Below are positions 12,191 to 39,533 of a DNA stretch of 64,000 nt, one piece after another. The translations under genes were made by a program, and so were the position numbers. Under the pieces are notes generated by a model, which saw only the letters and a list, made by a program, of their open reading frames with translations, did not search any database and was not told where the DNA came from. Source of the DNA: a phage; the sequence record PZ445427.1; one strand, given 5' to 3'. Within the stretch, counting starts at the first letter, position 1. Each line of letters opens with the position of its first letter.

Positions 12191-12424
12191 TTACGATTCT
12201 TTGAGCAAAGAAGCAAGTTCAGCATAGACTTTATCTAACTCAAAGCCAATGCGAAGAGACACACGAGTCTTCCGTTGTTTAAGTAACCATATGGAGACGT
12301 TAGGGATGCCAGCGAGACGAGGTGGTACAACCCTACATAGTTTCTCCGCAGTATCGTAAACAGAAGTTTTACGTTCTTTTACGGGAAACTTCCTTGTTTC
12401 CCACTTTTTATTCTTCGCTGTCAT
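12191..12424 (-). CDS. hypothetical small protein
   Basis: ORF to 12475; start moved to ATG 12424 (MTAKNKK) to limit overlap with upstream gene end. Confidence 0.35.
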   Translation of the reverse strand: MTAKNKKWETRKFPVKERKTSVYDTAEKLCRVVPPRLAGIPNVSIWLLKQRKTRVSLRIGFELDKVYAELASLLKES

Positions 12425-15198
12425 TTCTAGCCCCCAATTCAGCAAGAGCTTCCTCATGCATCTGACGTTCTTCATCTGTCATAAACTTAACTGGAATCGG
12501 CATACATTCGATCTTACAGTAAGTTCTGTACCAGTCCACAATCTTTTCCGTATCCAGATCTTTACCGATACCCATCATGCCAAGATACATACGAGCATAT
12601 TTTGGGTTAGCGCTCTGACCTGTCTTAAGGAAGAAATCCTTCTTCTTATTCTTAAGAGCTTCGATAAACGGTTTGATTGTTACGTTTGAACACTTTTTAA
12701 TATCTTCCCAGAACATGTCGTGCATCTTATGGAAGAATGCAGCTCTATCGTTTGGTTTATCCTTGATATACTGTTCAACGTGTTCCACTGTTACATCTTT
12801 AATAGAATCCAGATGATAATAGCGAACCAGAAGTAACTTGGCTTCATAGGCATCTGCATGACGTGGTGCACAATATTCAGGAGTTGAGTGCAAAATAGCT
12901 TTGATTCGCTCTTCTGTATACTCTTTTCCTGCACCTTCGATAGTTCCCCAGCTTTCGCTGAAAATATCGATAGTTGCACCCTGATCAAGCAGATAATAAC
13001 GCAAAGTACTAGTATAGTTTCTAGATTCCAGCTCACGACGACGTGCGTACAGTTGTTGGGCTAACTCAATCCAACCTTCGTCAATATTATATTGCTCGGA
13101 ACCCGCAGAAAATCCACTCGTAGATTTATCAATAAAATAATAAATGTTCTGAGCACCACGGTCGCGCCTGATTGCTTGAAAACGCATGTTTGGCGCTTGG
13201 TTTGAGGTTCGAGTGATAACAAATACGTTATCAAAATAGTTAAAGTCAACACCACTTGTTACAGATGGACTACATAATAAACAATCAATCTGTTGATCAA
13301 TTAGCTCATTAGTTGTATAATCCAGAATACGACGGATATCTACATCAGACGTAGAGTTTGAGTGAATTTCTTTAACTAACGCACCTGTATTACGACGTAA
13401 TGCCATTCCCTTTTCATTCAGTTCATCCGGTCCACAGTCAGATACTAGGATTGATTTCTCACCCATCTCTAGAGATGTTTGAAGTGCAACCCAAATACTG
13501 GATTCGTCAGGGAATTCATAAGCGTGAGCTTTCGCCAGCATTTTACGGTGGTGATTATAAAATGCGACTGGTTTATCAAAATCAATCAAAGAACCATAGG
13601 CTTCAATCGTTTCTGCACTGATATCACCATCAGATAAGATCACCGTTTTAGCAGTAATAAGAATATCGCGAAGAACCTGTATACATTCACGACGGTTTTT
13701 AACAACCGGAGCGAATAACAGATCATTCATTACTGCGTCACATTCATCAATAAAGATCGTATCAATCTGACCCACAAAGCTCTTGAACTTATGGATAGAG
13801 TGAATAGTTGAAGACATACGATCAATGGCACCACGTTTGAAGTTCAGCATATCAACTGACTTATCATACTGACCAGCACTGAATTTCTTCGCGTTTGAAG
13901 ATACAAGTGCCCTAGTATTCGTGATTGCAATAAAGTTTCCTGGAAGAACACCTGCATCTAGCCACTTAGTTACTGCTGTGGTTTTACCTGTACCAAGACT
14001 TGCCTTAACAAATGTTAAATGTCCTTTTGGTGGTACAATGTTAATTTTCAGGTATGGAACTTCTGGTGGAGAATCTGTATCCAGACGTTTTAATGGTACG
14101 CCTTTTAAGTTGGGCGGAATCTCACGTTTGGAGTTATTTACAAAGGCTTTGAGAGCCTGCTTACGACCGTTATTAAAGTAATCTTGAATATTACGACTAT
14201 TATCTTTAGTTGCAATATATTCAGATAAAGCTGGTTTAATCTCACGTTCTAACCACGTAAAGTCAACACCATCTTCTAACGCTCTGTGATAAAGTTTTGG
14301 GATAATACGCAGGTACACCCCATCCTCAGCTTCTTCTAGTTCGCTGATGGTTTCTTCCACTTTATCAGATGCAGCCTTCTTGCCTTTAATTTGGTCAAGT
14401 AAGGAGTAGAATTCTTCTTTAAACTCACCTCTAGTTGTTTCAAAGTCAACTAGGTTATTGGGTAGATTCACTTTCGAACCCTTAACATACACAAGACGTG
14501 GTTTATTCTCCGCTTTAAACGGATCGACTATACCATCATCAAATAAGGGATCTGCGAAATAGTGAAGCTGAACAGAAGAATAATAAGCTAAGTCAGCAAT
14601 ATCAAAGCCATACTTTTGCTTACTACTGTCATTGATGGATGTAAATAAGAATTTTAATTGCCCCTGCGTTACCTTGACATTAGATTCTAGCATTAAGTGC
14701 ATTCGGATACCTGGTTTTAATCCAGCCGAAGACGATGCATGAGCAATAAACCCTGCATCAAGAGGAAACATATCCTCACTAATACTATTCAACATCTTAA
14801 TAATATGACGTGCCATGCCAACAAGATTAAACTTGTCATAGCCACCAGTATCTACAATACCATCCACGTCCATAGCGATAATATGACTAGGATTGGATAC
14901 GTTAAAGTTTCCTCTGGTACGACGCACATTATCTTTTGGGGCTAGACATTTACCACGAATAGCTACAATATGCGGGTCTTTGGTAAGACGACGCATGATA
15001 GGTAACATTTCAGCAAGGTTTTGCGGGTCAAGTTCTTCAAGTACATCAAATTTGAAGGGCATGGAAGCTGGTTTACCTTCTGGATGCTCTTTAGAGAATC
15101 GCTTTGCAAAGGTGTAATCTTCCACTTTGATCTCTTTCCAGATGCCAGTGGCTTTATCTCTGGAAAATCCTGCGTGACCTTGTAGGATTGAGAACACA
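12408..15198 (-). CDS. large P-loop NTPase, putative replication-origin-binding helicase (T5 D2-like?)
   Basis: Walker A GTGKTTAV and helicase-like motifs; ORF runs to 15320 but GTG 15198 has AGGAG 6 nt upstream and the N-terminal extension looks non-coding. Confidence 0.6.
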
Positions 15199-15693
15199 AC
15201 AATACTCCTATGTTGGTTATTCGGATATCTTTCTTTAGGACTATTCAAAAGAATAGAACAACTATTACTACCATTTACACAAACATTAATCATCATCAAG
15301 CAGTATGAATAAGTTATCATACCTCAGTGCTGCGCTCTCTTAACTCTTATCCAGATCAGAACCTAGGTCATTGGCCGCTAAGCCGATTCTGATTGCCCTC
15401 ACTATCCTATTGGTAGGTGGCTACTGGACGTGTCACCATTCGCTGCTCTTTTCGTTCGCACCCCCATATAAAGCTCTGCCTATATAACGAGCTAAATATG
15501 CACGGTTTGGATTTACCTTTCCGAATTCAGGGTACGCAGATCACTTAATTGATAATTAACTAATGCAGTATAAACACTAGTAATAGTTAAAACAACCCTT
15601 AATGGGGCAGCCTAACTGTTCCGTATTGCGGATTGTAAACAAGAAAAATTAGCAAAATCAATTTTTACTAATGTCTCTCAATTCAATATAAAT

Positions 15694-15722
15694 ATTATAT
15701 CAAGATTTTGAGCATCCTGCAA
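15694..15722 (-). promoter_or_regulatory. promoter (minus strand) about 490 nt upstream of the large NTPase gene
   Basis: minus-strand TTGCAG-N17-TATAAT followed by the conserved ATTTATATTGAATTGAGAG leader but no nearby start codon. Confidence 0.5.
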
Positions 15723-15813
15723 GTAAAATTTTTCCGAAGGTGCTATCAGTGTCTTTGAGCACAGAGAAAACCGAGCCAAAATGACTCGGTAATCAGGATT
15801 GGACTAATGAAAA

Positions 15814-16209
15814 TCAATCATCATTTAGGCCTGGAACATAGATCCCAATGCGATTTAATTGACCTTTAGCTTCTTCGAGAATATCTTCGGTGTACTCCCA
15901 AATATCATCTTCTACTTGCAAAAGATAAGGGGATTCACCAGTTTCGGGGTCACGTGTAATGGCTAAGCCACGTGGATGGAATATAGAGAAGTTGAGGGCA
16001 ACAATCAAGCCCATACTGGACAATTCATTCCAGTCAGCTTCCCAACCATCATCTTCATCTTCGTCCACAAAGACACCTACACTAGGGTCTGTTACAGAAG
16101 TAAACGGAAATGTTACACTAACCTTGTCAACCCCCAACCAACGTGCAAGGAGCCCTTCAGCACGCTCTACCAAACTAGGATCTATCTGACGCCAAAATAC
16201 TTGTTCCAT
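15814..16209 (-). CDS. hypothetical protein, paralog of 16219..16647
   Basis: 131 aa; shared blocks MGLIVALN..F.P and GE.P...V...GW.Y with neighbour. Confidence 0.5.
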   Translation of the reverse strand: MEQVFWRQIDPSLVERAEGLLARWLGVDKVSVTFPFTSVTDPSVGVFVDEDEDDGWEADWNELSSMGLIVALNFSIFHPRGLAITRDPETGESPYLLQVEDDIWEYTEDILEEAKGQLNRIGIYVPGLNDD

Positions 16210-16218
16210 TCTGCCTCC

Positions 16219-16647
16219 TTAAGCAGTTAAACCTGGGATCATATACCCGAAACGACGAAGTTTCTGAATCCCCTCATTTACTTCTTCGGGCGAATATGAC
16301 CAGCCCTCACGTTCATTTACCTGGAAAGCAGGAGCTTCACCAGTGCGATAGTTTACAATAAGACGGTGATTTGCAGGCATAAACAGCTTATGGTTCAAGG
16401 CAAAAACCAGACCCATTTCATCGAGTTCTTTCCAGTCTACAATTTCTTCTACTCCCTCACCTAAATCCACGCTAACTCCAATACATGGAGCTTCCTCTAG
16501 TGGGCCTTTAAAGGATAGGAAGATATCGTTATTCTCACACCAAATCTTAAGCAGATTGATGGTTTCATTATACATACCATTAGGGAGAGAACGCCAGAAG
16601 TTGAGGAGCATAGGGTTTACCTCTTTCATGAAAAGATTATCGAACAT
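16219..16647 (-). CDS. hypothetical protein, paralog of 15814..16209
   Basis: 142 aa; tandem duplicate. Confidence 0.5.
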   Translation of the reverse strand: MFDNLFMKEVNPMLLNFWRSLPNGMYNETINLLKIWCENNDIFLSFKGPLEEAPCIGVSVDLGEGVEEIVDWKELDEMGLVFALNHKLFMPANHRLIVNYRTGEAPAFQVNEREGWSYSPEEVNEGIQKLRRFGYMIPGLTA

Positions 16648-19124: not shown

Positions 19125-20999
19125 TTATTTAGCGCGAATGTCCTGATGTTTCACTCGACCCATAACCTCATGTTGTTTGCCTGGGTTAAATGGACGAGCA
19201 CCTGGATTTCCAAGATATCCGCAAACTCGACGAGTTACCTCAAGAGTCTCAGGATCATGATTGCCACAAATTGGGCATTTGAAACCATCCTCAGAAGCTA
19301 TAGTTTCACCCAAGAACCCACATTCCCCACAAGAGTCTACTGGAGTATTAATACCGAAGTAATGAACTTTACTTGCAGCATAGTTAATAACCCATTCCAG
19401 TGCATCAGGGAATCGTTTCATATCCGGTAATTCCACATAGGAAATGCACCCACCAGAAGCAATAGGAGTAAAGTTAGACTCATAATCAAACTTCACATTT
19501 GGAGCAACCTTACGTTCTACATCAAGGTGATGGGAATTAGTGTAATATCCTTTAGCCAGAATATCTTCATGCTCTGGGAAATACTCACGGTCTAGGCGAC
19601 AGAAGCGATCACATAGAGATTCAGATGGTGTAGCATACAGACTATACCCTAATTGAGTCTCTTCCTTCTTCTGATCAGCACGATCACGCATGTATTGTAG
19701 CACACGTTGAACGAACTTGATACAAGACTCAGACATTGTATCTACATCTTTACCAAACATGAGTTGCAACATTTCGTGGCAGCCAATATATCCTAGGGAT
19801 ACAGAAGCACGCTTGTAGAAATGATCAAATACATATTCATCTGGCCCCAGACGTAATCCAAAGGCTCCTGACATATAGAGGATGGGCGCAGCTTTAGCTT
19901 GAATGTATTTTAAGCGATCAACCCTCCACTCCAATCCTTTTAACGCGGTATCCACACGCAGCTCAAGCAGATCGAAGAATAGATCAATATTTCCTTCCGC
20001 TTCGATAGCAATTCGAGGAAGGTTCACAGAAACAACACCTAAGTTATTACGGCCAGAAGTTTCACCATCTTCCGCAGCAGCTAGGAATGAACGACAGCCC
20101 ATAGAGACTTTGTAGTCACCAGTAACTTCTACAACCTTATCATAACTGATATAGTCAGGATACATACGTTCAGCAGTACATTTCATAGCTAACTTCTTGA
20201 TATCATAGTTAACATCACCAGGTTTCATGTTAACACCATCACGAAGTACAAATACCAGTTTAGGGAAGATAGCTGTACGTTTATTAATACCCAAACCATC
20301 CATACGCACTTCTAAGATTGCTTTCTGTACAAGACGTGCTTCCCAAGAAGTTCCTAGACCAAAACCAAAGGTAATAAATGGACTCTGACCATTAGAGTTG
20401 AACATCGTATTGATCTCATACTCTAGACCCTGACAGGCATCGTAAACTTCCTTCTCAGTCATTTCCGTAGCCATTACAGATGCTTTAGCTTCATCCTTAG
20501 TCCAACGTTTTGCAAACGCATGATTCTTATCATAAGACTTACGAACATAAGGAGCCAATACTTCATCTAATCGGTCTACAGAAGTACCACCATATTGATG
20601 TGAACTAACCTGAGTGATAATCTGAGCTGTGATAGCAGCCGCAGTAGTAATAGAGTTTGGCGTACTGATTTCAGCATTACCAACCTTCATACCGTTTTTC
20701 AACATATCTTCCAAAGCAACCAGGCAACAGTTAGTCATACCTAACGCAGCGTAATCAGCATCATGGAAGTGAATATCACCAATCATGTGAGCATTTCGAA
20801 TCTGGATTGGCATTTCTTCCAGAATCAGATATTTACTCAATTCCCCTGCAAGCATGTCCCTTTGTGTAGGGAAACGTTCTGAGGGCTTATTGGCATTATT
20901 AAACAGCAGCTCTTCATCTGCTGAACCTTCGATAATTTCTTTGCAGTTTCGAATCAAGGACTGCATTCCTTTATACTTTAGTTCTTCATTGCGATTCAT
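19125..20999 (-). CDS. nrdD: anaerobic ribonucleoside-triphosphate reductase (class III RNR)
   Basis: 624 aa; C-terminal Zn-ribbon CGECG...CPICG and glycyl-radical motif RVCGYLG. Confidence 0.85.
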   Translation of the reverse strand: MNRNEELKYKGMQSLIRNCKEIIEGSADEELLFNNANKPSERFPTQRDMLAGELSKYLILEEMPIQIRNAHMIGDIHFHDADYAALGMTNCCLVALEDMLKNGMKVGNAEISTPNSITTAAAITAQIITQVSSHQYGGTSVDRLDEVLAPYVRKSYDKNHAFAKRWTKDEAKASVMATEMTEKEVYDACQGLEYEINTMFNSNGQSPFITFGFGLGTSWEARLVQKAILEVRMDGLGINKRTAIFPKLVFVLRDGVNMKPGDVNYDIKKLAMKCTAERMYPDYISYDKVVEVTGDYKVSMGCRSFLAAAEDGETSGRNNLGVVSVNLPRIAIEAEGNIDLFFDLLELRVDTALKGLEWRVDRLKYIQAKAAPILYMSGAFGLRLGPDEYVFDHFYKRASVSLGYIGCHEMLQLMFGKDVDTMSESCIKFVQRVLQYMRDRADQKKEETQLGYSLYATPSESLCDRFCRLDREYFPEHEDILAKGYYTNSHHLDVERKVAPNVKFDYESNFTPIASGGCISYVELPDMKRFPDALEWVINYAASKVHYFGINTPVDSCGECGFLGETIASEDGFKCPICGNHDPETLEVTRRVCGYLGNPGARPFNPGKQHEVMGRVKHQDIRAK

Positions 21000-21028
21000 T
21001 ATACCCTCCTTCTCTAACTAAGACTACT

Positions 21029-21057
21029 ATTATAACTCATTCGAAGGCGGATGTCAA
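21029..21057 (-). promoter_or_regulatory. sigma70-consensus promoter for nrdD (minus strand)
   Basis: minus-strand TTGACA-N17-TATAAT; differs from the reiterated TTGCTT-type cassette. Confidence 0.6.
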
Positions 21058-21084
21058 CAATATTTTACTATAACATTCTGTAAA

Positions 21085-21098
21085 TTGATCTGAGTCAA
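21085..21098. promoter_or_regulatory. FNR/CRP-like palindrome TTGAT-N4-GTCAA upstream of nrdD promoter
   Basis: TTGATCTGAGTCAA centred about 70 nt upstream of predicted nrdD start site. Confidence 0.35.
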
Positions 21099-21249
21099 AA
21101 AATTTTATTTGCCAACCTCTATTAAAAATAGTATAATCACGCGCCCGTGTACGCGATATAAAATGATTATCTAGTACCACACATCTCCCAATAAAAGCAA
21201 GCAAATTTTTTATTTAAAAGCAATATCATAGGCTTATTTAAAATTGTAG

Positions 21250-21278
21250 TTGCTTTCTCCCGTATATATTGGTATAAT
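21250..21278 (+). promoter_or_regulatory. promoter cassette (TTGCTT-N17-TATAAT)
   Basis: hexamers at 21250-21255 and 21273-21278 upstream of phoH. Confidence 0.6.
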
Positions 21279-21342
21279 ATATTTGTAAGTTGATAAACAA
21301 GATCTTTTTGTTGATCCTCTGTTAGCGAAGTACACTATAGGA

Positions 21343-22104
21343 GTGTTATTTATGGGAAAAGCACGTCAAAAAAGAGAGAACCGCAATGGTTCAAGAAAGC
21401 GTGGCAACAAGTACGAGAGTAACGTAATTCAAGCAGATTTCTCTGGTGATTACGCCAATCCAGTTGCTAAATCCCTAGTTGGTAAAAACCGTGAGCAAAA
21501 ATCATATATCAATATGATCAAGAACAACACAGTGACTGTGGGTATTGGTGAACCAGGTACTGGTAAAACCTTTATTCCATCCGTTCTTGCAGCTCAGGAA
21601 CTCGTAGACATTCACTCAGATATTGAGCAAGTGATCCTCGTGCGTCCGAACGAACCTCTAGGTAAATCTCTTGGTATGCTCCCAGGTGATCTGGCAGAAA
21701 AGCTAGAGCCTTGGTTGGAACCAATAGCCGATGGCATGAAATGGGCAATCGGTGATCACGCCTACAAAGGATATGTCGAACGTCAGAAAATTAAATTCCT
21801 GGCTATCGAACATGCCCGTGGCCGAACTTTCAACAACTCCTATGTAATTGTCGATGAAGCTCAGAATATCTCCGTTGAAGCAATGATCTGTCTCTTGACT
21901 CGTGTAGGACAAGATTGTCGTTTAATTATCTGTGGGGATATAGCGCAGAAAGACATCAAGGGTGATTCAGGTCTAGCACTTCTTATGGAAGTCTATGAGA
22001 AGTATGAAAACTCTCCTTTCTCTATGATCGAACTGATCGACAACGTTCGCTCACCAGAGTCTAAAGCATTCTACGATATCTTTAAGGATATGGGGAAGGT
22101 GTAA
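21343..22104 (+). CDS. phoH: PhoH-like ATPase
   Basis: 253 aa; Walker A GEPGTGKT; Walker B IVDEAQN. Confidence 0.8.
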   Translation: MLFMGKARQKRENRNGSRKRGNKYESNVIQADFSGDYANPVAKSLVGKNREQKSYINMIKNNTVTVGIGEPGTGKTFIPSVLAAQELVDIHSDIEQVILVRPNEPLGKSLGMLPGDLAEKLEPWLEPIADGMKWAIGDHAYKGYVERQKIKFLAIEHARGRTFNNSYVIVDEAQNISVEAMICLLTRVGQDCRLIICGDIAQKDIKGDSGLALLMEVYEKYENSPFSMIELIDNVRSPESKAFYDIFKDMGKV

Positions 22105-22105
22105 T

Positions 22106-22348
22106 ATGGGAAACGTCGTACATCTGCACCGCAAAACTAAGATCCACCGTACTTCACTGAGTGCTGCTAATATGATTACACGTAAGGAAGGGGAAGAAAG
22201 TCCTAAGACTACCCTAGCGTGGAAAATTGTAGCCTCTAATCCAAATCGGCCTTTTAATTATAATGAACTTTCAACATCAGTAGATATTCTTCTGAGGGCG
22301 AATGCGAAAGCAAAAGTAATTAATCAAGCCGAAAAACTAGACTGGTAA
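22106..22348 (+). CDS. hypothetical protein (80 aa)
   Basis: ORF coupled to phoH stop. Confidence 0.4.
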   Translation: MGNVVHLHRKTKIHRTSLSAANMITRKEGEESPKTTLAWKIVASNPNRPFNYNELSTSVDILLRANAKAKVINQAEKLDW

Positions 22349-22469
22349 TATAGAAGGCCTGGGTATGAAAATACTCGGGCCTTTTCTATCAGAAAATTTT
22401 ATTTGCCAAATGACTGAGAATAAAGTAAACTATTTCCTAAATCCTGATAACTACAAAAAGGAAAGCCAA

Positions 22470-24800
22470 ATGAGCCATCGCATAGAAAAAGTAATCAAAC
22501 GTGACGGTACTGTAGAAGACTTTGCTCCTGAAAAACTCAATGGTTGGGCAGTGTATGGCTGCAAAACAGTTGATGTAAGCTGGTCATCCATCACTATGGC
22601 TGCTCAAAAAACTCTACCTAAAGGTGTTGTAGACTCCGACACCCTAATGGATGCGTTAATTAAAGCCGCTGAAGGTCTTATCAAAGATAACCCAGCATAT
22701 GATGTGCCAGCTAAGGAATTACGTCTTGCGCAGATGCGTAAACGTCTATATGACTCCTTCGAGCCTCCTTCTCTGCGTTTCTTCCACGATCATATGGTTA
22801 GTGTTGGAGCTTGGGAAGACATGAGTGCATGGATTAGCGATGATCAGTTTGATGCTCTGAATCAAGTTATCGATCATGATCGCGATCGTTTATTCACCAG
22901 TGGTGGACTGAAACAGTTCTTCGACAAGTATTCCCGTCGTAATATTGCAACTGGTGAAATTTATGAAACCCCGCAGTTTGCCTACATGGGCATGGCAATG
23001 GCGATGTTATCTCAACCTAACTGGACAATCCTAGATGCAATCGACCTCTACAATGCAATGTCGCTCCACAAAATCAACGTTCCTACTCCACCTCTCGTGG
23101 GTCTTAGGAGCAGCGACCGCGGTTTTGCTTCTTGTTGTCTTGTTGATAGTACTGATACCCTCGATTCAATCGACACAGCCGAGCATATCGTCTTCAAAAT
23201 GGTCGCAGCCAGAGCGGGAATCGGGTATCATCTTGAAAGCCGATCAATTGCTGATCCGGTGCGAAATGGGGCATTCCCGCATTCCGGAAAACTGCCATAT
23301 TATCGACACATTGACCGTTCAGTAAAAGCTAACACTCAGCAAACCCGTGGCGGTTCTGCTACTGTGTCTTATCCATACTTCGATCCTGAAATCATTCAGT
23401 TGATGCAGGTTAAGCAGCAACGTGCTACAGACGAGAATAAAATCGATAAGATGGATTATTCTCTGAGCTTTAACAACCTTCTGTTAAAACGTTACCTGAA
23501 AAACGAAGATATTACGCTAATGTCCTACTTCTACGCACCAGAAGTTCATGAAGCGTTTTATGGTGAAGATGAGGCTAAGTTTGAAGAAATCTACGTGGCA
23601 GCGGAGAAACGTGTGGCATCTCTTACAAAGACCGACCACGAAGGAAAAACAATTCCAGCAGCTCCTAGAATCTCTGCAAAAGAAATCCTAGATACTTGGT
23701 TACGTATCCGTATGGAAACAGGGCGTATGTATGCTCATCACATTGGTGAATCTAACCGTCATGGTAACTTCCTTGACCCGATTCGTATGACCAACCTTTG
23801 TGTTGAAATTACTCAGCCAACCCGTCCATTCCATCACATTACGGAACTGTATAAAACCCAAGATCAGTTAGACGATATGCGTCCAGAAGATATTGGTGAA
23901 GTATCTCTGTGTAACTTAGGTGGTGTTGTACTAGGCCGCATGGAATCTCTGGCTGAATGGGAGAAAACTTGCTACATCCTTCTGAAATTCGTTGATACAA
24001 TCATCGAGATTCAGGATTACCCATTCCCAACTATGGAATACACGGCTAAGAAACGTCGAAACGTTGGTATTGGCCTGATGAACGCAGCAGGTGCAATGGC
24101 AGCAGAAGGTTTGGCTTACGAAGGTGTTGAAGCTCGTAACTGGATTCACCGTGAAGCTGAAAAACTGTCTTACTTCCTGCACAAAGCATCTGTACGTCTG
24201 GCTAAAGAACAAGGTGCATGTGACTGGTTTAATCGTACTAAGCCATCCAAAGGAACTCTGGTAATCGACACGTACAAGAAAACTGTTGATGAACTGGTAA
24301 CCGTAGGTCTAGAAATGGATTGGGAATCTCTGCGTGCAGATATCCTGAAATACGGTATGCGTAACTCTGTTCTGACTGCTCAGATGCCGGGTGAAAGTTC
24401 CTCTGTACTGCTAGGTGTTACTAACTCTATTGAACCACCTCGTAAGATTGTATCTATCAAGGGTAGTGCAGTGAATAAAGTAATTGCAATTGCTCCAGGT
24501 GCAACCGATTGGGATACATTAATGAGCTATAAACTGGCTTATGATGTAGATCGTATCGAGTGGATCAAATGGGTAGCAACCATGCAGAAATTTTTCAGTC
24601 AGTCTATCAGTACGAATATGTACTATGACTACACCAAGTTTGAGAATGAAATCATTCCTGGTCCAGTAGTAGTTCGTGATTTCATGACTGCTGTTAAGTA
24701 CGGTTGGAAAACTTGGTACTACGCTAACTTCAACACTGAAAATGGTGGTGGAGCTGGTGAAGAAGCAGCAGGTTGTGCATCCGGTGGTTGTAACCTATAA
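22470..24800 (+). CDS. nrdA: ribonucleoside-diphosphate reductase alpha subunit (class Ia)
   Basis: ATP-cone KRDGTVEDF at chosen start; catalytic-site region EVSLCNLGG; ORF extends to 22365 but upstream part looks like leader. Confidence 0.85.
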   Translation: MSHRIEKVIKRDGTVEDFAPEKLNGWAVYGCKTVDVSWSSITMAAQKTLPKGVVDSDTLMDALIKAAEGLIKDNPAYDVPAKELRLAQMRKRLYDSFEPPSLRFFHDHMVSVGAWEDMSAWISDDQFDALNQVIDHDRDRLFTSGGLKQFFDKYSRRNIATGEIYETPQFAYMGMAMAMLSQPNWTILDAIDLYNAMSLHKINVPTPPLVGLRSSDRGFASCCLVDSTDTLDSIDTAEHIVFKMVAARAGIGYHLESRSIADPVRNGAFPHSGKLPYYRHIDRSVKANTQQTRGGSATVSYPYFDPEIIQLMQVKQQRATDENKIDKMDYSLSFNNLLLKRYLKNEDITLMSYFYAPEVHEAFYGEDEAKFEEIYVAAEKRVASLTKTDHEGKTIPAAPRISAKEILDTWLRIRMETGRMYAHHIGESNRHGNFLDPIRMTNLCVEITQPTRPFHHITELYKTQDQLDDMRPEDIGEVSLCNLGGVVLGRMESLAEWEKTCYILLKFVDTIIEIQDYPFPTMEYTAKKRRNVGIGLMNAAGAMAAEGLAYEGVEARNWIHREAEKLSYFLHKASVRLAKEQGACDWFNRTKPSKGTLVIDTYKKTVDELVTVGLEMDWESLRADILKYGMRNSVLTAQMPGESSSVLLGVTNSIEPPRKIVSIKGSAVNKVIAIAPGATDWDTLMSYKLAYDVDRIEWIKWVATMQKFFSQSISTNMYYDYTKFENEIIPGPVVVRDFMTAVKYGWKTWYYANFNTENGGGAGEEAAGCASGGCNL

Positions 24801-33586: not shown

Positions 33587-33594
33587 AAATTGAT

Positions 33595-33623
33595 TTGCTA
33601 AACGCCTCAAAATTCTGTATAAT
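33595..33623 (+). promoter_or_regulatory. promoter cassette driving an ORF-free region
   Basis: TTGCTA-N17-TATAAT at 33595-33600/33618-33623; no start codon within normal distance. Confidence 0.6.
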
Positions 33624-33629
33624 AGATTC

Positions 33630-34482
33630 ATAAATTAGAGAACAGCGAGCCGATTACGCTGAGTGAGTTTAGTGATTCCTACTAGGATAGCTATTCCACT
33701 GAATAGAGTCGGTGAGTTGGAGACTAGTAAGTACTCTGAGAGAGGCTACGAGCTAACGCTTATTGCTATTGATAGGGAACTGAAAATCTGCGGAAAACTC
33801 GGGAGCTGTCCCGAAATCTCGTAAACTCTTCTCTAGTTTATGTTAGTGGGGTGTCGAACTGACTTATGTGATAACACTGCCGTCCTAGTATAAACGGTAA
33901 TATCAAACCGTAACTGGTGGAAGATGCAGGTTCGAATCCTGCGGTCGGAAAGAATCAGATAACTCGGGCTTATACCGGATAAGCATTCGCTGCTGGAGTA
34001 CATACTATGACGGTTCAGGAGGTACGCCACCTGATCAGTATTAGGTTAGAATCGAAACAGCTAAACCACGAGGAAACCTGACGGCCTCAACCAAACTCGG
34101 AACTCGGGATCACTGCCTAGTGTGTGCCCCGTTTAACCTGAGACTAGGCATCCAGCTTCGCATCGAAAATCGGAGGTGCGATTCTAACAGACCGCGTGAA
34201 TATGAGAGTGGGAAACGCTGACATGAGAGATGTCACTAATGGTGCCCAATAGTACAGGTAATTCGCGATAATTCCTGTTGAGCGGCAGCAGTAGGCTGGG
34301 AGTCATGACCTAAGCCTAACCGAGTTCTTCACATACGGAGAACATAACCACAAAGTCACCCTGACTTAAACTGGAAGATATTGTCTGACGGAAGGGCTGC
34401 AGAGCTTAATCTGAGGGGGCTGACCCTACCTACCGTCGGGTATCTTTAAGAGCTTTTATAAGAGTTCTTAAAAATACCTAAA
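33630..34482 (+). ncRNA. candidate large structured non-coding RNA (about 850 nt), class unknown
   Basis: no plus-strand ORF >=60 aa; balanced composition unlike AT-rich spacers; hairpins (e.g. GCCTAGT...ACTAGGC); three AACTCGGG repeats; internal partial tRNA copy. Confidence 0.45.
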
Positions 34483-34557
34483 CGGGGTGTAGTCTAAGGG
34501 ATAGGCAGGAGTCTTCTAAATTCCTTTATGCAGGTTCGAATCCTGTCACCTCGGCCA
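34483..34557 (+). tRNA. tRNA-Arg (anticodon UCU)
   Basis: acceptor CGGGGTG/CACCTCG; anticodon stem GGAGT/ATTCC with loop CTTCTAA; T-arm GCAGG-TTCGAAT-CCTGT; CCA encoded. Confidence 0.7.
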
Positions 34558-34583
34558 ATTTTATTAACTGCTAGGAAAATAAA

Positions 34584-34784
34584 GTGAAAACACGATATAT
34601 AGTAAAAGTAGTAGGTGAACATTCACAAGTAAATACCACCGATGTTACAGCGCTAGCATTTGAAGTAGTCTCCGGTATAGTCATATTTCATAACGGAGAT
34701 ATCAAAGCTCCTGAATTTGCTGTGGATGCTAGCCTGTTTATTTCTGCAACTAAAGTAACTGTAGTAGCTAACTCTTCTAAATAA
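34584..34784 (+). CDS. hypothetical protein (66 aa)
   Basis: ORF with SD AGGAAAATAAAG. Confidence 0.4.
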   Translation: MKTRYIVKVVGEHSQVNTTDVTALAFEVVSGIVIFHNGDIKAPEFAVDASLFISATKVTVVANSSK

Positions 34785-34795
34785 TAAGGAAATAT

Positions 34796-35740
34796 ATGTT
34801 TACTAAAAACACTAAAGAACTGACTTCCGATCAAAAAGTAATTCGTACTATTAAACGTTGGGGTGTTGGTGCTGTAGTTGGTCTTGGCGCTCTTATTCTG
34901 GCTCTCAATTCCTACACAGTTGTTCAGGATGGTACTGTTAAGACTCAAACCTTCCTGGGTAAAGTTAGCCCGAACCCTGTACTGCCAGGCTTCCATATTG
35001 TTAACCCATTTGCTTCTTTTGATACTTTTAGTACGAAAGATATTTCTATGAAACTGGATAAACTTCAGGTTCCTAGCCAGGATAAGTTTAAGTCTACTGT
35101 TGACATTACCGTTATGTTGCAGTTTGATGGTGCTAAAGCTCCTATGAACCGTGTTAACGCAGGTACTCAGGATCAGGCTCTGAACAAGTACGTTGAAGAG
35201 AAGATGCTATCTACGATTCGTGAGTTTGGTAAGTCTGTACCAAAAGCACAAGATCTGTTCGACGCTAAGATTCAGGCTCAACTGCAAACTGCTATTCAGC
35301 AAGAAGTAGAGGAGTATGCGCGTCCTTATGGTTACACCGTTAAGCAAGTATTCCTTCAGGATATTACTCTGCCACCGGTAATCATGGAACAGGTACAGAA
35401 CACCAAAGTTCGTGAAGAACAAGTTAACGCTGCAAAAGCTGAACTGGCTCGTGTTGAACAAGAAGCACAACAGAAAGTTAAGCAAGCTGAGGCAGATCGT
35501 TCTGCTCGTGAAAACATGGCAGTAGCTAACGAACGTGACGCAGATGCTAAACTGTACGCAGCTAAGAAAGAAGCTGAAGCTAACGCCGCTCTGCAACGTA
35601 CCATTACTCCTGAAATGATTCGTTGGAAGCAGCTGGAAGTTGAAATGCTTCGTGCTGAAAAATACCAAGGTGGTGTACCGCAGACTGTTGTTGGTACTGG
35701 CTATGATGGTCAAATGATCATGGATATGCGTAACAAGTAA
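34796..35740 (+). CDS. SPFH/band-7 (HflK/C-, prohibitin-like) membrane protein
   Basis: 314 aa; N-terminal TM helix, SPFH-like core, long Ala/Glu/Gln-rich coiled-coil tail. Confidence 0.65.
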   Translation: MFTKNTKELTSDQKVIRTIKRWGVGAVVGLGALILALNSYTVVQDGTVKTQTFLGKVSPNPVLPGFHIVNPFASFDTFSTKDISMKLDKLQVPSQDKFKSTVDITVMLQFDGAKAPMNRVNAGTQDQALNKYVEEKMLSTIREFGKSVPKAQDLFDAKIQAQLQTAIQQEVEEYARPYGYTVKQVFLQDITLPPVIMEQVQNTKVREEQVNAAKAELARVEQEAQQKVKQAEADRSARENMAVANERDADAKLYAAKKEAEANAALQRTITPEMIRWKQLEVEMLRAEKYQGGVPQTVVGTGYDGQMIMDMRNK

Positions 35741-35763
35741 TAGTTACACGTAATCTTCGAACC

Positions 35764-35798
35764 AAGCCCGCGTTTCCTCCGAGAGCGCGGGCTTTTCT
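35764..35798 (+). terminator. rho-independent terminator
   Basis: GCCCGCG...CGCGGGC hairpin followed by TTTTCTGT. Confidence 0.6.
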
Positions 35799-35814
35799 GT
35801 ATTTAAGACAAAAG

Positions 35815-35850
35815 AAAAGCCCCTTACCTTTCGGCAGGGGCTTTGTTTTT
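35815..35850. terminator. bidirectional terminator between convergent transcription units
   Basis: GCCCCTT...AGGGGC hairpin flanked by T-runs on both strands. Confidence 0.6.
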
Positions 35851-36057
35851 GGTTTAGAACCATATACTCTTGTTACAGCAACCACCCATACGGGAGACCA
35901 ATCTTGACTGAAAATCTACTCTAGGGGGCAGGATAAGAGTAGGCTTAAAGGCAAACGGATTGAACACCGGTATTTGCGTAAACATTGCTGGAGAGCAACA
36001 ACGTGCTACAGGCATTGGGCAGCATGATGTAGGTTTTCTACAACACATATAAACTCC

Positions 36058-36477
36058 TTAGGATTTCTCCCCATTTTGCGCTTTTGCAACTTGACTTTGA
36101 CAGAAACTATTAAACTTACCCATAAGTGAAACAAGTTGCTTCCCATCCTCTGTTTTAGCGAAGTCTTCGAAAAGGGCTAGAACAGCCTGTCCTTCCGCAG
36201 ATACCTGCGGTTGTTGGGTTTGTTGAGTCATCTGCTGCTGTGGTTGCATTTGCTGAGGCATCATCTGCTGAGGCACCATTTGTTGCATTTGCATTTGCGG
36301 CTGCATTTGCATCTGGTTGATGTTTCCCTGCGGGTTTTGCAGGGAATTTTGCATTTGCTGTGCTTCTGCCAATCTCTGTTGCAACTGTTGTAAGTAGGGG
36401 TTATCCAGCCCCGGAACGGGCTGCTGGGAGCCCATACTTTGATTAAATCCGTTGTTCACAAAACCATATTTACTCAT
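36058..36477 (-). CDS. Gln/Met-rich low-complexity protein (139 aa)
   Basis: about 40% Q in central region (QMQPQMQMQQMVPQQMMPQQMQPQQQ); structured C-terminus. Confidence 0.55.
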   Translation of the reverse strand: MSKYGFVNNGFNQSMGSQQPVPGLDNPYLQQLQQRLAEAQQMQNSLQNPQGNINQMQMQPQMQMQQMVPQQMMPQQMQPQQQMTQQTQQPQVSAEGQAVLALFEDFAKTEDGKQLVSLMGKFNSFCQSQVAKAQNGEKS

Positions 36478-36499
36478 GATGGGCTCCTCCCCTTAATTA

Positions 36500-37495
36500 T
36501 TAAGCCGGCAGTTTAGCCTGCAGACCAGCCAGAGTCTGAGTGATAGCACCAAGACTTACAGCGATTTGGTTGATTACCTGACCGTTAGCACCGCTACCCT
36601 GAGCGATAGCTTCACGCAGACGGCATTCGTTCAGTTCGTCCTGAATACGCGCAGTAGTTACACCAGCGATTGCAGACTGAAGTTCACAGCAGCATTCAGC
36701 GATCTGACGTTCCAGAGCGTTCTGGTTAGCACAAGCCTGAGCAGCTACAGCAGCGAACTGGTTGTTAGTCTGGATAGACTGAGCAAACATGATCTGAGCG
36801 GTATCGAACTTGTCTTGAGCACGTGCGATCTGGTTAGCAGCGAAAGCTTGATCCATTTGACGAGAAAGATCGAACTGACCCTGAATAACATTACGAGTTT
36901 CCTGACAGATCTGGTTGGACAGGTTAGCACCAGTACCGTAGATCGTAGTCAGAAGCTGTTGAGTACTAGCAGCTTGAGCAGCTCCTACACCATTTACTGC
37001 ACTCAGAACAGCACCAGTACCCTGATTAGCTTCAGTACGAGTAGTGTTGATTGCAGCTAGAATACTTGCAGTATCCTGGTTAGAAAGGATCGCATCCACA
37101 GCAGTTCCCTCAGCGGCAACACCAGCACCGCGGCCAAAACCACCGAAACCACCGAATCCGCCTGTTAATAGAGCACCGATTAGGATAGCTCCGAATAGAC
37201 CCATACCTTCACCACCGAAAGCACCATTAGCAACTGCTGGGTAACCACCCATTAGGCCAGGGAAGCCACTAGTGAATACGTTTACTGGTTCTTGCATTTT
37301 ATGTTTTCCATGTTTATGACAATGTTCATCATCGTCATCTTCTTCATCATTTTCATCGTGTTCACGATGTTCTTTTTCGTAGGCCTTGACCTTCTCCCAC
37401 TTTTTCTTGTCTGATTCTTCGTGACGACGCAGTTCTGCTGCTACGCCAGCGACCGTATCAGGACTCTTAGCTACTTCTTCTGTCATTTTTGACAC
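36500..37495 (-). CDS. membrane protein with His/acidic N-terminus and glycine-zipper segment (331 aa)
   Basis: HREHDENDEEDDDDEHCHKHGKH; Gly-zipper GGFGGFGGFGRG with hydrophobic stretch; Ala/Gln-rich C-terminal half with CCCELQ. Confidence 0.55.
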   Translation of the reverse strand: MSKMTEEVAKSPDTVAGVAAELRRHEESDKKKWEKVKAYEKEHREHDENDEEDDDDEHCHKHGKHKMQEPVNVFTSGFPGLMGGYPAVANGAFGGEGMGLFGAILIGALLTGGFGGFGGFGRGAGVAAEGTAVDAILSNQDTASILAAINTTRTEANQGTGAVLSAVNGVGAAQAASTQQLLTTIYGTGANLSNQICQETRNVIQGQFDLSRQMDQAFAANQIARAQDKFDTAQIMFAQSIQTNNQFAAVAAQACANQNALERQIAECCCELQSAIAGVTTARIQDELNECRLREAIAQGSGANGQVINQIAVSLGAITQTLAGLQAKLPA

Positions 37496-37547
37496 CTCCT
37501 AGTATATAGAAAATGTGTGTCTCTTTGATCACTCATCCATATCATAT

Positions 37548-37576
37548 ACTTTACATTACCCCAGCGAAAATGTCAA
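37548..37576 (-). promoter_or_regulatory. sigma70-like promoter for the 37495..36058 operon (minus strand)
   Basis: minus-strand TTGACA-N17-TAAAGT, then AGGAGGTG SD and ATG 37495. Confidence 0.5.
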
Positions 37577-37692
37577 GGGGTCTTTAAAAATTGCCCCCGG
37601 ATTTTTAGTGGGGTAACAATTTCTGGACTTCACCACTCACCTGCTACCCTTAAGTGCCCTGCGATTTTCCACTAAAAAGTTTAAAAATTCGA

Positions 37693-37721
37693 TTGCTTGA
37701 ATGCTAAATTCTCTGTATAAT
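37693..37721 (+). promoter_or_regulatory. promoter cassette (TTGCTT-N17-TATAAT)
   Basis: leader AAATTTGAGAGAGGAATCAAAT then ATG 37752. Confidence 0.6.
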
Positions 37722-37751
37722 ATATTTATAAATTTGAGAGAGGAATCAAAT

Positions 37752-38807: not shown

Positions 38808-38808
38808 T

Positions 38809-39486
38809 ATGACTAACTATCTTGTAAATGACTTTAAAAACTGGAAACCTTTGGAATATCTGTGGCTGTTTATAGCAGTCGCCTTTATTAGTTTAGCAAA
38901 CTATAATGGTACAGCTCTAGATTGGGCTACTGCAATAACCAATGTGGTTTGTGTTATTCTGGTTGCAAAAGGACGTGTTTCCAACTATATTTGGGGCTTA
39001 GTGGGTGTTCTTACATATGGTATTACAGCTTTAAACGCAGATCTTTATGGTAACGCTGCACTAAACCTGCTATACTACGTTCCTATGCAGTTTTATGGAA
39101 TGTACTTATGGCATAAAAATAAGCCAAGTAATCTGCCAGATGTTCCAACTAAGGTTCTGACTAAAGCCCAAGCTCTGCTGACTCTAGGGATTCTAGCAGT
39201 AGCCACGTTAGGGTATGGTAGTTTCTTAGCTACTACGGCTGATCCATTCCCAATGTTGGATGCATTTACTGCGGTAGGTAGTGTGATCGCTATGTGGCTT
39301 ATGGTTAAGCAGTATGCCGAGCAGTGGCTGATCTGGATTGCTATTAACATTGGTACTGTGTACATTTGGCTTGTAACTGCTCAATCTACAGGTGCATCTT
39401 ATGCAATCCTAGCAATGTGGCTAGTATTCTTAGGTAACTCTATTATGGGAGCCTATAAAGGATACTTTGTACGCGTTAACAAATAA
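38809..39486 (+). CDS. PnuC-like nicotinamide riboside transporter
   Basis: about 225 aa polytopic membrane protein with W-rich helices; immediately follows NadR-like gene. Confidence 0.6.
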   Translation: MTNYLVNDFKNWKPLEYLWLFIAVAFISLANYNGTALDWATAITNVVCVILVAKGRVSNYIWGLVGVLTYGITALNADLYGNAALNLLYYVPMQFYGMYLWHKNKPSNLPDVPTKVLTKAQALLTLGILAVATLGYGSFLATTADPFPMLDAFTAVGSVIAMWLMVKQYAEQWLIWIAINIGTVYIWLVTAQSTGASYAILAMWLVFLGNSIMGAYKGYFVRVNK

Positions 39487-39494
39487 AGTAGTTA

Positions 39495-39520: not shown

Positions 39521-39533
39521 CAGAAATTTTCAC

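What the first reader, a model, noticed from the sequence alone, without database searches (positions are those of the whole stretch)
15199..15810. Long ORF-free region with promoter upstream of the large origin-binding-like NTPase gene
Seen in sequence: about 600 nt without convincing ORFs; a minus-strand promoter (15694-15722) lies about 490 nt upstream of the proposed GTG start at 15198. Inference: candidate replication origin or regulatory leader next to a putative origin-binding helicase.
Basis: partly seen in the sequence, partly recalled or inferred. Interest (0 to 1): 0.4.

Follow-up and report, generated by a model that had tools for sequence, protein, structure and literature searches.

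The report
Structured leader RNA before T5 helicase
The ORF-free 616 bases upstream of the D2 replication helicase gene of this T5-like phage are not empty: they hold a terminator, a strong promoter and a roughly 490-base folded leader RNA conserved across T5-like phages, which I found in neither Rfam nor the searchable literature and whose function is unknown.

Summary
The window is a T5-like phage (Epseptimavirus, 99.9% identical to Salmonella phage beppo). Bases 15198-15813 are non-coding, the minus-strand promoter sits exactly at 15694-15722, and the helicase gene (T5 D2) starts at the GTG, whose first base is 15197, not 15198. ATG 15320 is not the start.

Read on the minus strand, the region contains:
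- the terminator of the upstream operon;
- a T5-type promoter with an extended -10;
- a leader of about 490 nt.

The leader folds into two 5' hairpins, then a domain of about 330 nt closed by a long stalk (15259-15589), then a small hairpin before the ribosome-binding site.

The base pairing is supported by compensatory changes across T5, Salmonella, Klebsiella and Pectobacterium phages. 23 of 103 predicted pairs covary, against 2-4 in slid controls. One 9-bp long-range helix keeps pairing in six different sequence versions. The D2 sense strand folds better than the antisense strand.

No Rfam family matches. No iterons, DnaA boxes or GC-skew turn mark an origin.

Most likely this is a structured leader RNA of the D2 operon. 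It may act in cis, be excised as a separate RNA, or prime replication; that remains open.

The parts
15760..15790 (-). Intrinsic terminator ending the upstream operon: stem-loop 15790-15770, then a T-tract
   Evidence: Terminator scan found 9 pairs, 5 of them G-C, followed by TTTTCTCTGTG. It is conserved, with a compensatory change in L020.
15694..15735 (-). T5-type sigma-70 promoter: A/T-rich upstream tract 15735-15723, -35 TTGCAG 15722-15717, 17-nt spacer, extended -10 TGaTATAAT 15702-15694
   Evidence: Coordinates. Annotated as 'putative promoter' in T5 AY692264 and AKFV33. Conserved across genera.
15685..15689 (-). Predicted transcription start, about 7 nt after the -10 hexamer. Inferred, not mapped.
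   Evidence: Position relative to the -10 hexamer. The TTGAGAGA motif follows, as I recall from memory for T5 promoter PN25.
15641..15679 (-). HP1: a 16-bp hairpin at the 5' end of the transcript
   Evidence: RNAalifold helix 1. The same hairpin forms from five different sequences in T5-type, L054, L040, L041 and L038. It contains G-U pairs, which are only possible on this strand.
15592..15636 (-). HP2: a hairpin with the near-invariant core GGAACAGUUAGGCUGCC (15622-15606)
   Evidence: The core persists in Klebsiella and My1 phages whose D2 is only about 70% identical. L054 has compensatory CGGU/GCCG.
15259..15589 (-). Core domain of about 330 nt, closed by a long AU-rich stalk (P1 15589-15578 pairs with 15270-15259, continued by P2 and P3)
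   Evidence: Inverted repeat I1. MFE z-score -4.63. Alifold helices 3-5 carry compensatory changes. The same architecture appears in type B, L054, L040 and L041.
15327..15544 (-). P4: a long-range 9-bp helix with a 2-nt bulge (GUG-AU-CUGCGU at 15544-15534 pairs with GCGCAG-CAC at 15335-15327)
   Evidence: Eight taxa show six sequence versions, all fully paired. 7 of 9 pairs have changes on both sides.
15355..15393 (-). Hairpin carrying the invariant CUUAGCGG (15382-15375), read as a UAGC tetraloop closed by U-G and C-G. The outer stem covaries.
   Evidence: The motif is found in T5-type, type B, L054, Klebsiella, My1, Proteus and Providencia phages, and in three near-copies in Aeromonas phage TS3, with at least 9 different outer stems.
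15300..15325 (-). H3' hairpin. It contains ATG 15320, the spurious alternative start.
   Evidence: Type B, L040 and L041 have a different hairpin here (GUUGCCACCCC type), with a compensatory change in L023.
15241..15256 (-). Small hairpin CUAUUC-UUUU-GAAUAG between the stalk and the ribosome-binding site. No U-tract follows, so it is not a terminator.
   Evidence: Alifold helix 16. Equivalent hairpins with other sequences occur in L040 and L054.
15195..15209 (-). Ribosome-binding site AGGAG (15209-15205) and the GTG start codon of D2 (15197-15195)
   Evidence: The T5, AKFV33 and Shivani records annotate the same start.
12408..15197 (-). D2 gene: 929 aa, an SF2 helicase annotated as 'replication origin binding protein'. 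This is the gene the leader precedes.
   Evidence: PHROG 3712, full length. Pfam Herpes_ori_bp matches residues 391-533 only. T5 D2 was characterised as a bipolar helicase (PMC3632103).
15814..16209 (-). Last gene of the upstream operon (131 aa, DUF7415). It marks the upstream boundary of the region.
   Evidence: It is the homologue of T5p105.

Best explanation
The region is the junction of two early transcription units of a T5-like phage. The upstream operon ends at an intrinsic terminator. A strong T5-type promoter (-35 at 15722-15717, extended -10 at 15702-15694) then starts the D2 operon with a non-coding leader RNA of about 490 nt on the minus strand.

The leader has a conserved fold:
- a terminal 5' hairpin (HP1);
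- a second hairpin with an invariant core (HP2);
- a multi-helix domain of about 330 nt, closed by a quasi-continuous AU-rich stalk of about 35 bp;
- a small hairpin just before the ribosome-binding site and the GTG start at 15197.

Shown here: the absence of coding potential, the promoter and its conservation, the strand, the conserved base pairing, and the lack of any Rfam match.

Inferred:
- the leader acts at the RNA level, in cis, on the D2 operon;
- the 5' hairpins protect the transcript and may hold a factor at the promoter-proximal end;
- the invariant UAGC-loop hairpin is a binding site for a protein, possibly D2 or another replication protein, that sets D2 translation or mRNA life;
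- the long stalk is a plausible RNase III site whose cleavage would release the core and leave a short-leader D2 mRNA.
For: Identity of the locus. The region is 99.9% identical to phage beppo, and 536 phage records match it.

Non-coding:
- no sense ORF of 25 aa or more inside the leader;
- the ATG 15320 extension carries stop codons in all relatives examined;
- the N-terminus is conserved from the GTG.

Promoter.

Fold:
- the minus-strand MFE has z = -4.63, against -2.54 for the plus strand;
- the alignment fold scores -68.8 on the sense strand against -50.8 on the antisense strand;
- 103 pairs are predicted, 99.5% of cells are paired, and 23 pairs carry double changes, against 36-49% paired and 2-4 pairs in slid controls;
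- P4 is kept in six sequence versions over about 210 nt;
- the UAGC-loop hairpin has at least 9 different stems.

Selection. Third codon positions in D2 are 60-70% identical between lineages, while the first 90 nt of the leader are 99% identical.

No terminator lies between the leader and D2. The next minus-strand terminators are at 10309 and 9978. A long ORF-free leader precedes the D2 homologue in every Demerecviridae genus examined except L055.
Against: - No transcript data: the transcription start, read-through into D2 and any processing are all predicted.
- Proteus phages have a second, near-consensus promoter about 35 nt before D2. There D2 can be expressed without the leader, which weakens a purely cis-regulatory role.
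- The leader shows no obvious structure that sequesters the ribosome-binding site and is conserved across the variants.
- A domain of 330 nt is much larger than known phage translational operators.
- Independent covariation events are limited in number. Most double changes separate three or four lineages, so cell counts overstate the number of events.
- MFE z-scores of the Vibrio, Aeromonas and Providencia leaders are not significant.
Confidence: 0.5

Rival explanations
1. Transcript-dependent replication origin. The promoter and its structured transcript would serve as pre-primer or R-loop former, as with ColE1 RNA II, the T7 primary origin or T4 oriF/oriG. The phage family-A DNA polymerase would extend the primer, and D2, encoded next door, would unwind.
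For: - A strong promoter is followed by a conserved structured transcript directly upstream of the presumed initiator helicase.
- The first roughly 45 transcribed bases are very AT-rich, at 18-25% GC, as in T4 origins. That comparison rests on established knowledge.
- In T5 the locus lies at about 59.3 of 121.75 kb, near mid-genome.
- T5 replication shows multiple internal bidirectional origins (PMC3632103).
- The arrangement is conserved across the family.
Against: - The AT-richness of HP1 is not conserved: in Proteus phage HP1 is GC-rich.
- No GC-skew turn lies at this locus.
- Recombitron strand bias suggests that T5 replication is dominated by one direction from a genome end (PMC10055335).
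- A conserved 330-nt fold with an invariant tetraloop is not required by an R-loop model.
- There is no evidence for an RNA-DNA switch point.
Confidence: 0.2
2. An independent trans-acting RNA. The long closing stalk would be a processing stalk, as in rRNA precursors. Cleavage would release a stable RNA of about 300 nt that works elsewhere, for example as a ribonucleoprotein scaffold, a ribozyme, or a decoy against a host factor or defence system. The D2 leader position would merely supply early, strong transcription.
For: - A quasi-continuous stalk of about 35 bp closes the domain in all variants.
- The size and complexity resemble large non-coding RNAs more than operators.
- Proteus phages carry a separate promoter for D2 downstream of the RNA.
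- The core has been swapped between lineages as a cassette while its architecture was kept.
- The same mosaic pattern is seen in Vibrio phage leaders.
Against: - No discrete RNA species has been reported for this locus in the literature I could search.
- The RNA has never been found away from the D2 homologue. The HP2 core motif occurs once per T5-like contig, and the other hits are at chance level.
- There is no match to any ribozyme or large-RNA family in Rfam.
Confidence: 0.2
3. A classical double-stranded DNA origin: repeated binding sites for the D2 'origin-binding' protein plus an AT-rich unwinding element.
For: - It lies adjacent to the gene annotated as origin-binding protein.
- The motif CTTAGCGG occurs once here, twice in near-copies in Proteus phage and three times in Aeromonas phage TS3.
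- An AT-rich stretch lies at 15640-15730.
Against: - No direct or tandem repeats above chance and no DnaA box.
- Only a single copy of the motif in most phages.
- The AT-rich stretch is the promoter plus HP1.
- Abundant G-U pairs and the sense/antisense folding asymmetry point to a single-stranded sense molecule, not duplex DNA or a cruciform.
- D2's similarity to herpesvirus UL9 is confined to the helicase motor, not the DNA-binding domain.
Confidence: 0.06
4. Part of the region is coding: either the D2 protein starts at ATG 15320 or 15293, as some GenBank records annotate, or a small protein is encoded in the leader.
For: - The frame is open from 15320 in this phage.
- The Sw2 and beppo records use 15320 and 15293 as the start.
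- Sw2 also annotates a 33-aa ORF at 15678-15779.
Against: - The extension contains in-frame stops in T5 and in all other lineages.
- ATG 15320 lies inside a conserved RNA hairpin and lacks a properly spaced ribosome-binding site.
- The small ORFs are not conserved between variants.
- The 33-aa ORF overlaps the terminator and promoter and matches no PHROG family.
Confidence: 0.02

Closest known systems
Lambda N leader and the RNase III-processed leaders of T7 early mRNAs
   Same: A long structured 5' leader sits between an early promoter and the first gene of an early operon. A long duplex could be cut by RNase III and so change translation or stability of the downstream message.
   Different: Those leaders are shorter and simpler, and they lack a 330-nt multi-helix domain with invariant loops. 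RNase III cleavage here is only inferred from the length of the stalk.
ColE1 RNA II pre-primer, the T7 primary origin and the T4 oriF/oriG R-loop origins
   Same: A promoter-driven non-coding transcript lies next to replication genes. ColE1 RNA II is also a folded RNA of about 500 nt whose structure matters for its function.
   Different: There is no evidence here for a persistent RNA-DNA hybrid, an RNase H site or a DNA start point. No antisense regulator promoter was found, and the AT-rich element is not conserved in Proteus phages.
Herpes simplex virus oriS bound by UL9
   Same: The neighbouring gene resembles UL9 in its helicase motor. UL9 recognises a hairpin form of its origin, and this region holds a hairpin with an invariant loop.
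   Different: There are no repeated boxes flanking an AT spacer. The similarity to UL9 does not cover its DNA-binding domain. The pairing pattern (G-U pairs, strand asymmetry) fits RNA rather than duplex DNA.
Large phage-associated non-coding RNAs (GOLLD, ROOL) and other orphan large RNAs in Rfam
   Same: A large, complex, conserved fold carried by phages, with unknown function.
   Different: No sequence or structure match to any Rfam 15 family. This RNA always sits as the leader of one particular gene rather than beside tRNA genes.
T4 translational operators (gene 32, gene 43, RegA sites) and HK022 put antitermination RNA
   Same: Replication-gene mRNAs controlled through small RNA structures near the 5' end. 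Like HP1 and HP2, put consists of two hairpins just downstream of a promoter.
   Different: Those elements are 20-75 nt long. No sequence similarity was found, and no binding partner or antitermination activity has been tested here.

Membership tests
Any described RNA family (Rfam 15) | Score at or above the family's gathering threshold, or at least a low E-value, against a covariance model | tested here: not met
   The only window hits are tRNAs elsewhere. A permissive scan of 15000-16000 gave a single chance-level hit, Hrs1 at E = 0.41 over the terminator on the opposite strand. Eight distant loci gave nothing in their leaders.
Structured cis-acting 5' leader RNA | Lies between a promoter and the start codon on the coding strand, with no intervening terminator | tested here: met
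   Promoter at 15722-15694, start codon at 15197, and no terminator-like site between them on the minus strand. The transcription start itself is predicted, not mapped.
Structured cis-acting 5' leader RNA | Secondary structure conserved through compensatory base changes | tested here: met
Structured cis-acting 5' leader RNA | Demonstrated effect on expression of the downstream gene, through a ligand, a protein or processing | not testable with these tools
   Needs reporter fusions or phage mutants.
Iteron or DUE-type replication origin (lambda ori, plasmid ori, HSV oriS) | Several repeated initiator-binding sites | tested here: not met
   No repeat family beyond short two-copy chance matches. 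No tandem repeats in 15199-15813. CTTAGCGG is present once.
Iteron or DUE-type replication origin (lambda ori, plasmid ori, HSV oriS) | AT-rich unwinding element next to the binding sites | tested here: inconclusive
   15640-15730 is 18-25% GC, but this stretch is the promoter plus HP1, and HP1 is GC-rich in Proteus phages.
Iteron or DUE-type replication origin (lambda ori, plasmid ori, HSV oriS) | Replication initiation mapped to the site | not testable with these tools
   The GC-skew minimum of the window is at about 20-24 kb and follows gene orientation. No replication data are available.
Transcript-primed origin (ColE1 RNA II, T7, T4 oriF/oriG) | Promoter whose non-coding transcript runs through the origin | tested here: met
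   Promoter plus a 490-nt non-coding transcript. This feature is shared with an ordinary leader, so it does not discriminate between the two.
Transcript-primed origin (ColE1 RNA II, T7, T4 oriF/oriG) | Persistent RNA-DNA hybrid and an RNA-to-DNA transition point | not testable with these tools
   Requires R-loop mapping or primer-extension on replication intermediates.
RNase III processing stalk (rRNA precursors, T7 early mRNA, lambda N leader) | About 20 bp or more of quasi-continuous duplex RNA | tested here: met
   Predicted P1-P3 stalk of 12 + 7 + about 12 bp, with small bulges, in types A and B, L054, L040 and L041.
RNase III processing stalk (rRNA precursors, T7 early mRNA, lambda N leader) | Cleavage in vivo or in vitro | not testable with these tools
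   Needs Northern blots or 5' end mapping in rnc+ and rnc- hosts.
Protein-coding sequence (N-terminal extension of D2) | Open frame and residue conservation in relatives | tested here: not met
   In-frame stops in 9 of 9 other lineages. Protein conservation begins at the GTG.

The most novel reading that the evidence does not exclude
T5-like phages carry a previously undescribed class of large structured RNA: a core of about 330 nt inside a leader of about 490 nt. The core would be excised from the D2 leader through its long stalk and would have a function of its own in starting phage DNA replication or in host takeover. For example, it could act as pre-primer or loading platform for the D2 helicase and T5 polymerase, or as a ribonucleoprotein or ribozyme. 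Analogous swapped-core leaders would do the same job in the Vibrio and Aeromonas members of Demerecviridae.
Probability: 0.3. Interest if true: 0.75.

Novelty: new member of a known kind. Interest (0 to 1): 0.5.

Why it matters
T5 is a classic model phage whose replication origin and initiation mechanism are still undefined. Its relatives are widely isolated for phage therapy and food safety.

A large RNA fold supported by covariation sits directly in front of the presumed initiator helicase in more than 500 sequenced phages, yet public records annotate the region only as a 'putative promoter' or mis-annotate it as coding. Large conserved RNA folds are rare and often mark ribonucleoproteins or catalytic RNAs.

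Because T5 is genetically tractable, the function can be tested directly.

On the practical side, the result fixes the D2 start codon, which GenBank records give at three different positions, and removes a spurious 33-aa gene call.

Tried and rejected
- **Rfam.** Gathering and permissive scans of the window and of eight distant loci found nothing in the leaders.
- **Origin signatures.** Direct, inverted and tandem repeats, DnaA boxes and GC skew gave no origin signature.
- **Coding readings.** The ATG 15320 and 15293 extensions, the 33-aa ORF at 15678-15779, other small ORFs on both strands, and a 20-codon ORF in the invariant 5' part (which I read by eye as stopping early in Klebsiella phage) were all rejected.
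- **Covariance model for HP1-HP2.** Abandoned because MAFFT could not put the covarying HP1 arms in register. I used per-sequence folds and an explicit arm table instead.
- **Pattern search.** Searching IMG/VR with the HP2 core found one copy in each T5-like contig plus about 30 hits in unrelated contigs, as expected by chance for 15 specified bases. This gives no evidence for the RNA elsewhere.
- **Metagenome search.** A scan for D2 relatives added only two new lineages, L054 and L055.
- **Distant leaders.** Thermodynamic z-scores for the Vibrio, Aeromonas, Proteus and Providencia leaders were weak, from +1.3 to -2.2. I therefore do not claim a conserved fold there on that basis.
- **Anti-SD idea.** A CCUCCUUA anti-Shine-Dalgarno-like loop next to the UAGC hairpin in L040 and L041 is absent from the window's variant, so I dropped it.
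- **Homing co-conversion.** I considered whether co-conversion from the nearby HNH insertion site explains the 99% identity of the first 90 nt. The differences cluster next to the insertion site and the invariance lies further away, the opposite of a co-conversion gradient.
- **Literature.** Six completed searches found no description of this RNA. The 1976 origin-mapping paper is not in the library.
- **D2 N-terminal domain.** Not pursued. Structure prediction would have needed the costly protein search and does not decide the question.

Full report
**What the window is.** The 1.6 kb around the finding is 99.9% identical to Salmonella phage beppo (Demerecviridae, Epseptimavirus) and matches 542 phage records, including T5 itself. 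The large minus-strand gene below the region is the homologue of T5 D2 (T5p106). It is annotated as 'replication origin binding protein' and has been characterised biochemically as a bipolar SF2 helicase proposed to act in initiation. Its Pfam and PDB similarity to herpesvirus UL9 covers only the helicase motor, residues about 390-533. The gene above the region (15814-16209) is a DUF7415 protein, the homologue of T5p105.

**Checking the observation.** Nothing but short mechanical ORFs lies in 15199-15813, apart from the 5' extension of the D2 frame to ATG 15320. Outside the tRNA cluster this is the largest stretch of the window not covered by an ORF of at least 70 aa.

The extension is not coding:
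- its frame contains stop codons in T5, in the second T5-like lineage (type B), and in Klebsiella, Pectobacterium My1, Proteus, Providencia and metagenomic relatives;
- the protein alignment is invariant from M1-F2-x-I4-L5-x-G7-H8 onward;
- the Proteus-phage ORF opens exactly there with ATG;
- the PHROG profile aligns from residue 1.

GenBank records disagree on this start. beppo uses 15293, Sw2 uses 15320, and T5, AKFV33 and Shivani use the GTG.

It fits the T5 consensus quoted in the AKFV33 record, is annotated as a putative promoter in T5, and is conserved across genera. Upstream of it, at 15790-15770, is the terminator of the preceding operon.

**What is in the 490 nt between promoter and start.** The minus-strand RNA of 15199-15690 folds far better than shuffled controls (z = -4.63). 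The plus strand does so less (z = -2.54). A 21-nt inverted repeat, 287 nt apart, closes a domain.

I collected the homologous regions upstream of D2 from IMG/VR, GenBank phages and metagenomes. Twenty-two distinct leaders from E. coli and Salmonella phages fall into two variants. Type A includes this window and T5. Type B shares the first roughly 100 nt and the last roughly 80 nt almost exactly, but its central roughly 300 nt are only 33-44% identical at the same length.

RNAalifold on this alignment predicts 103 pairs, 23 of which show changes on both sides that keep the pair. On the same structure 99.5% of cells are paired. When the 3' partners are slid by 1-3 columns the figure is 36-49%, with 2-4 double-change pairs. 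No shuffle out of 500 reaches the observed covariation score. The alignment folds to -68.8 on the D2 sense strand and -50.8 on the reverse complement. Many pairs are G-U, which would be C-A mismatches on the other strand. The structure therefore belongs to a single-stranded molecule of D2 sense, most simply the transcript.

**Anatomy (minus strand, coordinates).**
- HP1, 15679-15641: a 16-bp hairpin at the very 5' end.
- HP2, 15636-15592: core GGAACAGUUAGGCUGCC.
- Stalk: P1 (15589-15578 with 15270-15259), continued by P2 and P3. About 35 bp in total, with small bulges.
- P4: GUG-AU-CUGCGU at 15544-15534, pairing with GCGCAG-CAC at 15335-15327.
- A hairpin at 15393-15355 carrying the invariant CUUAGCGG, best read as a UAGC tetraloop on a C-G, U-G stem.
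- H3', 15325-15300: this hairpin contains ATG 15320.
- A small hairpin at 15256-15241.
- The ribosome-binding site.

**Evidence from more distant phages.** Klebsiella phages (D2 about 73% identical), Pectobacterium My1 (68%), a metagenomic contig (67%), Proteus (64%) and Providencia (59%) all have the same layout: terminator, promoter, long ORF-free leader.
- In the first three groups the motifs of HP2, P4, the UAGC hairpin and H3' are recognisable.
- P4 exists in six sequence versions in eight taxa (CUGCGU, CUGUGU, CUACAU, CUGUAU, CUACAC, CUAGAA, each with its matching partner). Every one of its 9 pairs is intact, and 7 of the 9 have double changes.
- The partner arms were picked by requiring full complementarity. 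They nevertheless fall at the same distance (about 210 nt) and in the same conserved context in an independent MAFFT alignment. The chance of such a 9-mer in the search span is about 0.04 per sequence.
- HP1 forms from five unrelated sequences.
- The CUUAGCGG hairpin has at least nine different outer stems. The inner stem also covaries: GGCU/GGCC, GACU/GGUC and GCCU/GGGU.
- Proteus and Providencia leaders show the same general plan in single-sequence folds (a strong 5' hairpin, long-range closure, the motif hairpin). That rests on prediction only.

**Selection.** Between this phage and T5, third codon positions of D2 are 70% identical, and against type B 60-64%. The first 90 nt of the leader are 99% identical in all these comparisons, and the whole leader is 86-99% identical to T5. 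The type A/B core identity of 33-44% is below the neutral level, so the core was probably exchanged with a more distant homologue rather than drifting. Its architecture survived the exchange.

An HNH endonuclease gene is inserted just upstream of the promoter in some relatives. Co-conversion from that site does not explain the invariance, because the differences cluster next to the insertion point and the invariant block lies further away.

**Wider family.** In Vibrio phages (Brizo, JSF10, D243, Pontus, pVp-1, KIT04) and Aeromonas phage TS3, the D2 homologue is again preceded by a sigma-70-type promoter and 650-1,600 nt without credible genes. The Vibrio leaders repeat the same mosaic: about 170 nt including the promoter and two 5' hairpins are nearly invariant, the core is swapped, and the last roughly 25 nt are conserved. 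I could not show homology with the T5-type RNA, and their folding z-scores are not significant. A more distant relative (L055, D2 44% identical) has only a short AT-rich leader with two promoters.

**What it is not.**
- No Rfam 15 family matches the region, in the window or in eight distant loci, even with permissive thresholds.
- There are no iterons, tandem repeats or DnaA boxes.
- The AT-rich stretch coincides with the promoter and HP1.
- The GC-skew minimum of the window lies at about 20-24 kb, where gene orientation changes.
- Six completed literature searches found no description of this RNA.
- T5's origin remains undefined. One paper cites multiple internal origins and another infers mainly unidirectional replication from one end.

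**How it most likely works.** Shown: a conserved promoter, a non-coding sense-strand leader with a conserved fold, and no terminator before D2. The next minus-strand terminators are at 10309 and 9978, so the unit is about 5.4 kb. The rest is inferred.
- I favour an RNA-level role tied to the D2 operon. A terminal 5' hairpin is a standard protection against 5'-end-dependent decay. The invariant loops look like protein-binding sites. The long stalk is a plausible RNase III substrate whose cleavage would both free the core and shorten the D2 leader.
- Against a purely cis-acting role: the RNA is very large, and Proteus phages have their own strong promoter right before D2.
- The two serious rivals are a transcript-dependent origin (promoter, structured transcript and adjacent initiator, a mid-genome position in T5) and an excised trans-acting RNA.
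- I put about 0.5 on the leader reading as stated, 0.2 on each of the two rivals, and little on a duplex-DNA iteron origin or on coding.

**Verdict.** The origin idea has no positive support but is not excluded in its transcript-dependent form.

Noticed in passing
window 15195-15320; GenBank records of beppo, Sw2, T5: Public records give three different starts for the D2/'origin binding protein' gene: 15320, 15293 and the GTG at 15197. Comparative evidence supports only the GTG. Sw2 also annotates a 33-aa gene (15678-15779) that overlaps the terminator and promoter and is probably spurious.
   Followed up: yes
L018, L021 and L035 (for example L021:2451-2546); equivalent to just after window 15650: A 96-nt insertion sits in the leader right after HP1 in some T5-like phages (also suggested for DT57C, SP3, phC17, Kenya-K44 and 26175II by their longer matches). 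It is flanked by a TTTTTCTT direct repeat and folds on its own (-19.4 kcal/mol). No other copy exists in the sequences held. It could be a small mobile insertion or an extra RNA module.
   Followed up: partly
Between window 15735 and 15760 (equivalent sites in L004, L005, L028, L119, L120): An HNH homing endonuclease gene is inserted between the upstream terminator and the D2 promoter in AKFV33, Shivani, 8sent1748, Kenya-K15 and others, but not in this phage.
   Followed up: partly
L032:2935-2965 (Proteus phage): A second, near-consensus promoter (TTGACA-18-TATAAT) lies about 35 nt before the D2 start, downstream of the long leader. A second near-copy of the loop motif (GCCUUAGCCG) lies 86 nt before the start.
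   Followed up: partly
L042, L121-L124 (Vibrio phages); L043; L045: Vibrio and Aeromonas Demerecviridae have ORF-free leaders of 650-1,600 nt before the D2 homologue. The Vibrio leaders have an invariant promoter-proximal block of about 170 nt, swapped cores and a conserved 3' end, mirroring the T5-type mosaic. Several records annotate 30-55-aa 'hypothetical proteins' there.
   Followed up: partly
window 33879-49408: A cluster of 29 tRNA genes (ARAGORN), all on the plus strand, includes two stretches with no ORF of 70 aa or more (42830-44556, which is packed with tRNA genes, and 33587-34687, which has one to two) that I did not examine further for other RNAs.
   Followed up: no
window 15814-16209 and 16219-16647: Two adjacent paralogous genes both carry DUF7415, with two matched stretches each. 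Their function is unknown. They end the operon upstream of the D2 promoter.
   Followed up: no
window 20000-24000: The cumulative GC-skew minimum and an ORF-free gap at 21000-21342 coincide with the switch from minus- to plus-strand genes (the nrdD/phoH divergent region in beppo). This is the only skew turn in the window.
   Followed up: no
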